Source of the DNA: Octopus vulgaris
Lineage: Eukaryota
Assembly: GCA_951406725.2 (NCBI GenBank)
Contig: OX597822.1
Location: 74,462,001-74,526,000 of the forward strand
Direction: 5' to 3'
Length of the DNA: 64,000 nt
Of the stretch, positions 56,972-59,672 are shown one piece after another; positions within the stretch are counted from its first letter, which is position 1; each line of letters opens with the position of its first letter. A program made the translations under genes and the position numbers. Under the pieces are notes generated by a model. It was not told the origin of the DNA. It was given only the letters and a program-made list of their open reading frames with translations, and ran no database searches.

Positions 56972-58337
56972 CGACGGGCTTCTTTCAGTTTCCGTCAACC
57001 AAATCCACTCACAAGGTTTTGGTTGGCCCGAGGCTATAGTAGAAGACACTTGCCAAGGTGCCATGCAGTGAGACTGAACCAAGAACCATAAGCTACTTAC
57101 CACACAGCCACTCCTACGCCAAGGTCGACTTTGCCTTTCATCCTTTCGGGGTCGATAAATTAAGTACCAGTTACACACTGGGGTCGATGTAATCGACTTA
57201 ATCCCTTTGTCCGTCCTTGTTCGTCCCCTCTATGTTTAGCCCCTTGTGGGCAGTAAAGAAATATATATACATGATGGAATAAATAAATATCAAACATACC
57301 CTGCTTTAAAAGTGTATTAATTTCAGTCAGTAACATACAATTTAATTCTTTACTTGCATACACTTCAGAAAACCGGAAAATCCAGATATCCGGGAAACTT
57401 CCGACCTTAAACTTGCCTGTATTGTATTTCGTTTAGGTCGTGCGCTAACCCAGATAGATAACGATCAATCTAATATTTCGACGAAGCTATGTAGCTGACA
57501 TAACAGATCAAATTGGGGTACAAATGTCTAAATAACAGAAATACAAGAATGAGCTTGTTTCCAATAATCATTGGCCTTCTTTCCTTACACTCTTGTTATT
57601 CCACGAAATTTAATAATCTGGTATGTTTCGGTCATACGATAAAGATATATCTTAATCTAATCTCAAAGGTTTTTCATTTTCACAGAAATATTGAATCATC
57701 AAAAGATTGTTTTATCATTTAATCACTCTCAATTCATTTTCGACATTATATATATGTACCGATAGGGCACAGAAAGTGTGTTTATAGCCAGCTGGAAGAG
57801 GTGTCCTCCTGGGGCTACAAACTACAGTAGCATCCACTCTTAGGGGTTAGCCATATTTAAATGGGAAATATACGTCACAGTATTTTATAAATGTGCCGAA
57901 AAACGGGAAGCAAGCTACTTACCACACAGCCACTCTTGTATATGTATATATTCCCTCTTAAACGTGGATATTCTGTTTTGCTTGTCTCACTCATGGAATG
58001 CAGTCATACTGGAGCACTACCTTGAAGGGTCTAGTTGCCTTTTTTTTTCTTTTTTTTTTCTAATTCCGGTTCTTATTCTAATGATCTTTCGCTGAACCGC
58101 AGGAAGTCGCGGAAGTAGACAAATCAAGCTGTGGTAAAGGACAAAAACAAACACACATATACACGTATACAACGAGCTTCCACTAATAAGGTGCCGCACA
58201 GTGAGATTGAACCAGAAGCCATGTCACCGGCGTGTGGCTTAATGGTAAGGGGCTTTGGCTCACGATTGTAAGGGTCTTGTACATGTATTGTATTTCCCTT
58301 GCATGTTAATTTCACAAGCAGGTTGTATGTATATATG

Positions 58338-58643: not shown

Positions 58644-58681
58644 CTGTCTGATGAACGGCAACGAGAAACTCAGAGTAACAG
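58644..58681 (+). ncRNA. Minimal type I hammerhead ribozyme
   Basis: CTGT-CTGATGA-aCG(gcaa)CGa-GAAAC-TCAGA-GTA-ACAG. Confidence 0.82.
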
Positions 58682-59358
58682 ATTTTGTTGAATTTTCTGC
58701 TGCTTAAAATAAAGTATATATATATATATATATATATAAACCTTTGGCCATGGAGGACGAGGGGATTGCACCTAGAAAGTTACCCTCCGAGGCACAAGTC
58801 TTATAGAAGACCTTCAGTCGCCTATGCACACCAGCCTCCCCTCTCTGTGCCACTGATGTCATCCATGGGAAGGCAAAGGGGCCGATACAGCTTGGCACCA
58901 GTGACATCACAACTCATTTCTGCAGCTGAGTGAATTGGAGCAACGGGAAATAAAGTGTCTTGCTCAAGAACACAAAACACAGCCAAGTCCGGCAATCGAA
59001 CTCACAACCTTACAATTGTAAGCCCGACGTTCTAACCAAGCCTTCACACGTATGTGCGCCTGTGAGATTGTGTGTGTGTGTATTTATGTGTATCTGTCCT
59101 TCTGCCTGAGTTTGTTCCCCACCACCACGGCTTGACAACTGGTGCTGATGTGATTGCATCCTCGCAACTTAGCAGTTCAGCAAAACAGCCGATAAAATAA
59201 ATACCAGGTTTAAAAAATAAATACTGAAGTCGAATCCAAGGCAGTGCCCCAGCATGGCGACAGTCTAATGACTGAAACAAGTAAAAGGTTATATATATAT
59301 ATATATATATATATAGCAATAATAATTCTCTAAATGAGATATAGACAGTAACTGCTCC

Positions 59359-59605
59359 ATAACATAAGGGACTAAAGCCATCTGAATATGGCTAGGGACA
59401 GGACAGGGTGGTGGGAATGTTACTGTTGCATTTAGCCCCAGGCGAACATCAACGTCGCCAGGTAGGCTTGACACCATAAAGGACACCGTGATGGTGTCAA
59501 GCCTATCTGGCGACGTTGATGTTCGCCTGGGGCTAAATGCAACAGTAACACCCCCACCACCCTGCCCTGTCCCTAGCCATATTCAGATGGCTTTAGTCCC
59601 TTATG

Positions 59606-59609
<4 letters not shown>
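59359..59609. repeat. ~250-bp palindrome (119-bp arms, 13-bp spacer) between (TA)n tracts
   Basis: 59359-59477 is the reverse complement of 59491-59609 with about 4 mismatches. Confidence 0.95.

Positions 59610-59672
<63 letters not shown>

What the first reader, a model, noticed from the sequence alone, without database searches (positions are those of the whole stretch)
59359..59609. Unrecognised covarying two-hairpin motif at the centre of fold-backs, where sister fold-backs carry hammerheads
Seen: reading outward from the centre gives hairpin 1 GACACC-gtgat-GGTGTC, then hairpin 2 AGCC-tatct-GGCGAC-gttgat-GTTCGCC-tgg-GGCT, then AAATGCAACAGTAACA and a downstream AGCCATATT. Diverged relatives keep the pairing with changed sequence. 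At 37583: AGCC-atc-AGGAGGC-gtcgat-GCTTCCT-ag-GGCT. At 57765-57865: GCAC-agaaa-GTGT, AGCC-agct-GGAAGA-ggtg-TCCTCC-tgg-GGCT, ACAAACTACAGTAGCA, AGCCATATT. At 37815-37906 (minus strand): GATGCA/TGCATC, AGTC...GGTT. No CTGANGA/GAAA core is present, and by eye it does not match twister, pistol, hairpin or HDV consensus. Inference: this may be an undescribed self-cleaving, self-priming or RT-recognition RNA of a (TA)n-associated retroelement.
Basis: partly seen in the sequence, partly recalled or inferred. Interest (0 to 1): 0.8.

Follow-up and report, generated by a model that had tools for sequence, protein, structure and literature searches.

The report
Hammerhead retrozyme with conserved priming domain
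The two hairpins are a real, conserved RNA fold inside a ~360-base repeated parasite RNA that carries an ordinary-type hammerhead ribozyme further upstream and whose copies always land as mirror-image pairs with one short and one long end, which likely means a Penelope-type retrotransposon enzyme copies it from two start sites and that the hairpins likely help that enzyme find it.

Summary
The fold-back at 59315-59609 and the two-hairpin motif are real. The motif covaries across diverged families (94% of cells paired, 10 of 16 pairs with double changes; slid controls 33-52%). But it does not replace a hammerhead. The window holds only 5'-truncated pieces of ~360-nt, ORF-less tandem units (families A-H, hundreds to thousands of genomic hits). 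Full units carry a type I hammerhead about 50-60 nt upstream of hairpin 1, with odd cores (U3-G8, U4C, U3-A8) that a CTGANGA search misses. These are non-LTR retrozymes. The 'AAATGCAACAGTAACA' and 'AGCCATATT' strings are stem arms of a downstream domain holding two fixed 3' ends 44-59 nt apart. In 60 of 60 classifiable fold-backs one arm stops at each end; targets are (TA)n or AT-rich with about 10-13-bp duplications. That is the Penelope-like-element (PLE) 'tail' signature; an active autonomous PLE in this genome shows it too. Likely mechanism: a PLE RT-endonuclease primes from both nicked strands at the two sites, and the cDNAs join by microhomology. The hairpins likely help recruit that protein (about 45%); a new ribozyme is unlikely (about 7%). 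No autonomous PLE examined carries them.

The parts
59315..59477 (-). Left arm of the family A fold-back; 5'-truncated retrozyme copy that ends at 3' end site 2 (carries the tail)
   Evidence: left end at offset 132, span 59315-59609
59315..59358 (-). 44-nt tail (between end site 1 and end site 2), present on this arm only
   Evidence: sequence
59327..59339 (-). P6 hairpin (TCTC-N5-GAGA) just before end site 2
59345..59352 (-). 3' strand of helix P3 (GTTACTGT), partner of ACAGTAAC
59476..59606 (+). Right arm; 5'-truncated copy that ends at 3' end site 1 (TTATGT then (TA)n); joined to the left arm by 1-2 nt of microhomology
59482..59498 (+). Hairpin P1 (GACACC/GGTGTC)
   Evidence: covariation helix 1
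59500..59534 (+). Hairpin P2 (AGCC/GGCT outer stem, asymmetric internal loop, GC-rich inner stem)
   Evidence: helices 2 and 3
59542..59549 (+).
   Evidence: 5 of 8 pairs with changes on both sides
59575..59592 (+).
59291..59314 (.). (TA)n target, left flank
59607..59670 (.). (TA)n target, right flank
37477..37735 (.). Family B fold-back: left arm ends at site 1, right arm at site 2; P2 at 37583-37615
57755..57880 (+). Family C 5'-truncated copy ending at site 1
   Evidence: (57763-57831)
37815..37965 (-). Family D (older) 5'-truncated copy ending at (TA)n
   Evidence: 37841-37908

Best explanation
The motif is the conserved hairpin module of a ~360-nt, protein-less hammerhead retrozyme that is likely copied into AT-rich DNA by a Penelope-like element (PLE) protein, and the hairpins likely help recruit or position that protein upstream of two fixed start sites. 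Shown: tandem 353-363-nt units with a type I hammerhead fold, then P1, P2, P3-P6; two discrete 3' ends; mirror-image insertions with one arm at each end; about 10-13-bp target duplications; 1-8-nt microhomology at most centres; arms up to more than two units long. Inferred steps: (1) tandem loci are transcribed and the hammerheads, whose short palindromic stem III suggests dimer folding, would cut out monomers that may be circularised; (2) a PLE RT-GIY-YIG protein binds the RNA in trans and makes a staggered cut in (TA)n/AT-rich DNA; (3) each free 3'-OH primes reverse transcription, one at site 1 (inside the P3-closed loop, 3' of P5) and one at site 2 (3' of P6); (4) the two cDNAs grow toward each other, stop at variable points and join by microhomology, giving a fold-back with the tail on one arm only. 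The motif looks central in short fold-backs only because the arms were truncated just upstream of it. Odds by step: retrozyme identity 0.9; PLE-driven double priming 0.8; P1/P2 as protein-recruiting module 0.45. Best candidate partner: the 781-aa two-ORF PLE.
For: Units and hammerheads: periods 359-363 nt (A, B, G) and 353-355 nt (H); longest ATG ORF 42-90 aa; cores U3-G8 in 33 of 39 A and 29 of 34 H copies, C3-C4 in 6 of 7 B and 7 of 7 C, U3-A8 in 20 of 20 G, the last being a known active covariation (PMC3088659, PMC4209133, passages read). Circular folds of natural periods z -5.2 to -6.9, same layout in A, B, G. Covariation. Two ends. One-of-each rule: A 17/17, B 10/10, G 6/6, C 9/9, H 18/18 (loci chosen from pattern positions, not by their ends) = 60 of 60 classifiable among 66 examined. 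Target duplications by eye in 8 of 10 non-(TA)n sites and 6 H sites. Centre overlap 1-8 nt in 25 of 36. An active 1312-aa PLE in this genome has two ends 58 nt apart, (TA)n targets and one-of-each in 5 of 5 classifiable inverted pairs (of 6). The 781-aa PLE shares family G's hammerhead core and stem III (TTGATAA...GAAACATG) and a CTC-N5/6-GAG...TTATTAT hairpin before end 2; in 2.26 Mb (both strands) that pattern hit only families A, C, H and this PLE (pattern chosen after seeing it). Literature: tail, inverted 5'-truncated copy and 8-10-bp TSD in PLEs (PMC3846280, PMC8557442); two internal RT starts, both strands extended, predicted dimer, ~150-nt RNA region required (PMC11167929).
Against: No autonomous PLE examined carries P1/P2: model R1 found none in the repeats of the 781-, 574-, 1312-, 842-, 981- or 1091-aa families or 20 further GIY-YIG loci (the hits in L110, L114, L115, L116, L197 are separate insertions), and blastn of five units against eight PLE loci gave nothing below E 0.03. 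The 781-aa PLE has only 66-75 AT-rich nt between ribozyme and end 1, so P1/P2 is not a copy of its own signal. Rfam does not recognise family A's hammerhead even at E 10; U3-G8 and U4C cores are untested and may be weak. No tandem period was seen for C, D, E, F; only 1 of 2 D cores and 0 of 2 E cores are intact. Junctions are not at base-paired partners (2 of 30, about 6% expected). Loci for A, B, C, G were best hits, not a random sample.
Confidence: 0.6

Rival explanations
1. The element is as described, but P1/P2 serve the RNA's own life cycle (folding, circularisation by a host ligase, stability, export or host-protein binding) and are not read by the reverse transcriptase; only the P3-P6 domain sets the start sites.
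For: P1/P2 absent from every autonomous PLE examined; ends keep their distance to P5/P3/P6, not to P2 (site 1 lies 62-65 nt after P2 in B, C, G but 72-75 in A); retrozyme circles are highly self-paired in other animals (PMC7229834).
Against: Pure stability would not need a fixed geometry (6-bp P1, 4-bp stem, small asymmetric loop, 6-7-bp stem, A-rich linker) kept across families.
Confidence: 0.28
2. P1/P2 (with or without P3-P6) is a new self-cleaving or ligating ribozyme that backs up the altered hammerhead cores.
For: Strong covariation, no Rfam match; four of five young families have non-canonical cores.
Confidence: 0.07
3. The element is a SINE-like or DNA-transposon-like repeat moved by a LINE or transposase; the fold-back arms are terminal inverted repeats and the hairpins a promoter or by-product.
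For: Inverted arms; a tRNA-headed SINE in the same genome has a superficially similar AGCC...GGCT-AAAAC tail.
Against: Arms are variable-length head-to-head duplications with unequal ends, not fixed TIRs; no tRNA head, poly(A) or simple tail repeat; the SINE tail scores 7.4 bits (E 4.5) with R1; compensatory changes point to RNA-level selection.
Confidence: 0.05

Closest known systems
Animal non-LTR retrozymes (Cervera and de la Pena 2020, PMC7229834; mussel units of ~350-390 bp; Li et al. 2026 preprint 10.64898/2026.07.22.740005)
   Same: Short ORF-less tandem units with a type I hammerhead, short palindromic stem III, highly self-paired predicted circle, co-occurring with PLEs.
   Different: Non-canonical cores fixed in young families (U3-G8, U4C, U3-A8); a conserved covarying P1-P6 module and two fixed 3' ends, which I did not see described in the passages read; expression and circularity not shown here.
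pLTR and 'tail' of endonuclease-positive Penelope-like elements (PMC3846280, PMC8557442, PMC4209133)
   Same: Inverted 5'-truncated copy, optional tail at one end, short TSD, (TA)n bias, hammerhead upstream of the ends.
   Different: No RT-EN ORF; tail 44-59 nt rather than 30-40; no sequence match to the repeats of the autonomous PLEs found here; the tail is not optional but strictly on exactly one arm (60 of 60).
PAc (Poseidon of Anolis) internal RT initiation (PMC11167929)
   Same: Two RT start sites downstream of a hammerhead, AT-rich targets, little target homology, both strands extended.
   Different: PAc starts in an AC-rich stem-loop inside its ORF and showed no strand difference in start site in vitro; here the genomic products are strictly asymmetric and the RNA is non-coding.
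Twister-sister-like 'lantern' ribozymes (PMC11620745)
   Same: Two stems around an internal loop.
   Different: Loop sizes 3-5 by 2-3, no conserved CA, letters not conserved.

Membership tests
non-LTR retrozyme | short tandem unit (~170-400 nt) | tested here: met
   359-363 nt in A, B, G, 353-355 in H; no tandem seen for C, D, E, F
non-LTR retrozyme | type I hammerhead fold in each unit | tested here: met
   three stems plus core with GUC site by descriptor in A, B, C, G, H, one D copy; core has one non-canonical position in A, B, C, H
non-LTR retrozyme | match to an Rfam hammerhead model | tested here: not met
   no hit for family A at E up to 10; none among the 150 of 183 rows shown for seven loci. 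Not a defining feature in the source papers, which use descriptors
non-LTR retrozyme | no protein-coding capacity | tested here: met
   longest ATG ORF 42-90 aa on either strand
non-LTR retrozyme | low GC (<45%) | tested here: inconclusive
   42-46%
non-LTR retrozyme | self-cleavage | not testable with these tools
   needs in vitro transcription
non-LTR retrozyme | expressed as circular RNA | tested here: inconclusive
   no run on record as RNA; two contigs of unit length plus 31 nt fit a circle or a tandem equally
PLE-type insertion | head-to-head inverted 5'-truncated copy | tested here: met
PLE-type insertion | tail extension at one end | tested here: met
   60 of 60 classifiable fold-backs
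PLE-type insertion | short target-site duplication, AT-rich or (TA)n target | tested here: met
   about 10-13 bp by eye in 8 of 10 non-(TA)n sites and 6 H sites
autonomous PLE | RT plus GIY-YIG ORF linked to the repeat | tested here: not met
   no ORF in the units; motif absent from the PLE families sampled
twister-sister-like ribozyme | 5+6-nt internal loop with conserved CA | tested here: not met
   against PMC11620745 passages
any Rfam family (twister, pistol, hairpin, HDV-like, hatchet) | covariance-model match over the motif | tested here: not met
DNA transposon / MITE | fixed terminal inverted repeats of equal ends | tested here: not met
   arm lengths 38 to about 900 nt, ends always unequal

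The most novel reading that the evidence does not exclude
P1-P2 is an undescribed functional RNA class of retrozymes: either an aptamer-like module evolved de novo to hijack a PLE protein whose own RNA lacks it, setting two primers asymmetrically on one circular template, or a second catalytic element that compensates for weakened hammerhead cores.
Probability: 0.2. Interest if true: 0.8.

Novelty: new variant of a known kind. Interest (0 to 1): 0.5.

Why it matters
How animal retrozymes are copied into genomes has been argued from co-occurrence and phylogeny (PMC7229834; 10.64898/2026.07.22.740005). These families give direct footprints: tail, target duplications and a strict one-end-each rule shared with an active PLE in the same genome. 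That rule offers a simple explanation of PLE inverted junctions (two target-primed cDNAs joined by microhomology) against the self-priming idea raised in PMC3846280, and it names a compact 360-nt RNA, two start sites and candidate intact proteins for an in vitro test. The fixed U3-G8 and U4C hammerhead cores are natural variants worth assaying. The finding is not a new ribozyme class on present evidence.

Tried and rejected
Rfam, window at gathering scores: none; at E-value thresholds: only microsatellite/miRNA noise and a U6 copy among rows shown. Autonomous carrier of the motif: GIY-YIG family search, two protein searches, R1 scans and blastn found none; only part of the genome's PLE diversity was sampled and no N-terminal-endonuclease or Poseidon-type query was run. 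A whole-genome search with the RNA model was not available, so families were found by DNA, pattern and chance co-occurrence; there is no genome-wide census. A 1.38-kb tandem array with family H was a local duplication, not a longer element. SINE tail as homologue: rejected. Junctions at stem partners: rejected. Motif patterns in metagenome and viral contigs: 0 hits (exact patterns, near relatives only). Expression: no RNA holder listed; contigs only. Alignment A1 had one row with wrong coordinates and A4 one on the wrong strand; neither alignment was used for counts. The loose descriptor (216 hits, shuffled 24-35) was used only to find families. Earlier scan notes: nothing found. The supplement of PMC7229834 could not be read; it holds invertebrate retrozyme sequences and might show the same module or cephalopod examples. 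Paper searches that found no description of these elements.

Full report
Setting. The window lies at G000:C9:74462001-74526000 of a 2.8-Gb assembly. It is rich in microsatellites and tRNA-headed SINEs; these look cephalopod to me, which is recalled and comes from no call.

Observation. The inverted repeat is real: arms 59359-59477 and 59491-59609, spacer 13 nt, between (TA)n runs. Each is a piece of a high-copy family: first-look candidates 1098 (A, 59480), 2161 (B, 37583), 1338 (C, 57765), 534 (D, 37815-), of which 40 each were scored; these are not copy numbers. A is very young (16 listed copies identical over 130 nt). Further families turned up: E, F (one copy), G, H (585 exact hits to a 24-nt pattern, 0 for the reversed control) and one more beside a PLE.

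Covariation. Model R1 was built on 12 copies of C, D, E only. It recovered A (28 bits), B (13-26), G (43) and H (up to 60), none used to build it, though not the window's B copy, which lacks P1. On 35 distinct model-aligned rows 94.4% of 557 cells pair and 10 of 16 pairs change on both sides; slid controls pair 33-52%. That alignment leans to the model, includes one spurious row, and rows within a family are related. A MAFFT alignment of 13 copies of the downstream part gives 82.8% of 232 cells paired and 6 of 18 pairs with double changes, slid controls 27-47%: ACAGTAAC is one arm of a long-range helix P3 (5 of 8 pairs covary) and AGCCATATT one arm of hairpin P5. The truncated arm alone does not fold better than shuffles (z -0.37); whole natural periods folded as circles do (z -5.2, -6.9, -5.4 for A, B, G) and share one layout: a long rod tipped by the hammerhead and a multibranch loop with P1, P2, P3-P5, P6.

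The missing hammerhead. Longer copies are tandem units of 359-363 nt (A, B, G) or 353-355 nt (H) with no ORF over 90 aa. About 50-60 nt upstream of P1 is a type I hammerhead fold with a palindromic stem III and a GUC site. Cores: TTGA-GA (U3-G8) in 33 of 39 A and 29 of 34 H; CCGATGA (U4C) in 6 of 7 B and 7 of 7 C; TTGATAA (U3-A8) in 20 of 20 G; CTGATGA in 1 of 2 D; none intact in 2 E. U3-A8 is a known compensatory, active core (PMC3088659, passages; PMC4209133, parts 1-2 of 4 read). A CTGANGA search misses all of these, and Rfam does not score family A's. This anatomy fits animal non-LTR retrozymes (PMC7229834, passages and part 3 of 6; preprint 10.64898/2026.07.22.740005, part 1 of 5 and passages). 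Activity of the U3-G8 and U4C cores is untested.

Insertion footprints. Copies end at two sites 44-59 nt apart: site 1 in the P3-closed loop after P5, site 2 just after P6. In head-to-head insertions one arm ends at each site: A 17 of 17, B 10 of 10, G 6 of 6 classifiable of 9, C 9 of 9 classifiable of 11, H 18 of 18 classifiable of 19; 60 of 60 classifiable among 66, none with both arms at the same site. The H set was picked from pattern positions without looking at ends; the others were best hits. Non-(TA)n sites show duplications of about 10-13 bp by eye in 8 of 10 cases and in 6 H sites. Centres overlap by 1-8 nt in 25 of 36, arms range from 38 to about 900 nt, and the joints are not at base-paired partners (2 of 30). 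Tail at one end, inverted truncated copy, short TSD and (TA)n bias are PLE hallmarks (PMC3846280, passages; PMC8557442, passages), and the tail was shown to lie between two RT start sites for an Anolis PLE that extends both target strands and is predicted to be a dimer (PMC11167929, parts 1-2 of 4).

Candidate enzymes. The genome has several intact PLE families: a two-ORF family with a 781-aa RT/GIY-YIG protein, a 1312-aa family with many identical copies and 842/981/1091-aa families. The 1312-aa family inserts at (TA)n, has two ends 58 nt apart and follows the one-of-each rule in 5 of 5 classifiable inverted pairs. The 781-aa family has family G's core and stem III, two ends 39 nt apart, and a CTC/GAG hairpin followed by TTATTAT before end 2 as in A, C, H; that pattern, chosen after the fact, hit nothing else in 2.26 Mb of both strands. 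But none of the autonomous families sampled carries P1/P2, so the partner is not proven and P1/P2 is not simply an inherited pLTR signal.

Mechanism. Shown: anatomy, ends, asymmetry, duplications. Inferred: a PLE protein cuts AT-rich DNA with a stagger, both 3' ends prime on the retrozyme RNA, one at each site, and the two cDNAs join by microhomology; strict asymmetry suggests one asymmetric complex, perhaps one RNA. Arms longer than a unit need a multimeric or circular template. Short fold-backs show the motif at their centre because the arms stop just upstream of P1, near the base of the rod (23 of 72 arm ends at unit positions 22-62 by my count; query choice biases this). For P1/P2 I favour a protein-recruiting or positioning role (0.45), by their fixed geometry just upstream of the start sites and by analogy with the RNA region PAc needs; a role in the RNA's own life cycle is next (0.28); a new ribozyme is unlikely (0.07) because loop letters vary between families and fail the twister-sister-like test (PMC11620745, passages).

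Expression. No run is on record as RNA. Two 373-nt contigs from two studies span one A period (less 19 nt) plus 31 nt, as a circle or a tandem would; this is no evidence either way.

Novelty. Searches (listings; papers opened as stated above) showed no description of these families, of a conserved retrozyme module of this kind or of a strict one-end-each rule; the library lacks most subscription papers and repeat databases, and one relevant supplement could not be read. Verdict: a real structure in a new variant of a known kind; interest 0.5.

Noticed in passing
window:58490-58719: Fold-back of another family with a minimal canonical hammerhead (CTGATGA at 58648) only about 35 nt from its first end; the left arm runs on about 60 nt further, again one short and one long end.
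   Followed up: partly
window:2260-2516: Fold-back with a hammerhead (CTGATGA at 2370) whose stem III (CGATCG) is like that seen beside the 981/984-aa PLE family.
   Followed up: partly
L163-L168 (e.g. G000:C19:14370500-14387000): PLE family with a 1311-1312-aa Asn-rich ORF, about 140 listed copies identical over the 158-aa query, in 4.6-kb tandems and inverted pairs; minimal hammerhead with CTGATGC core. Looks currently active.
   Followed up: partly
L106-L111: PLE with two overlapping ORFs (about 479 and 781 aa), a 3' region of repeated CCAAT-like and TGACGTC boxes, and a U3-A8 hammerhead.
   Followed up: partly
L043:1249-1360, L048, L069, L075: tRNA-headed SINE whose 3' part has an AGCC...GGCT-AAAAC look-alike and ends at (TA)n; not scored by the motif model.
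   Followed up: yes
families A, G, H hammerhead cores: U3-A8 (G) and U3-G8 (A, H) differ by one A-to-G change; drift through a wobble intermediate or RNA editing before reverse transcription could explain it (speculation).
   Followed up: no
L001:1189-1602 (read laying): Two run contigs cover one family A period with a 19-nt deletion at hairpin P1, hinting that P1 may be dispensable in some copies.
   Followed up: no
window:20027-23199: 3.2-kb CAG/CAA-rich tandem array (period 12/24/36).
   Followed up: no
window:6553-7578 (+): 342-aa open frame resembling a Tc1/mariner transposase (label recalled, not tested).
   Followed up: no
window:28552-30927 (-): Long open frame with a LINE-type reverse transcriptase region (label recalled, not tested).
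   Followed up: no
L054:2395-2502: U6 snRNA-like copy above the Rfam gathering score.
   Followed up: no
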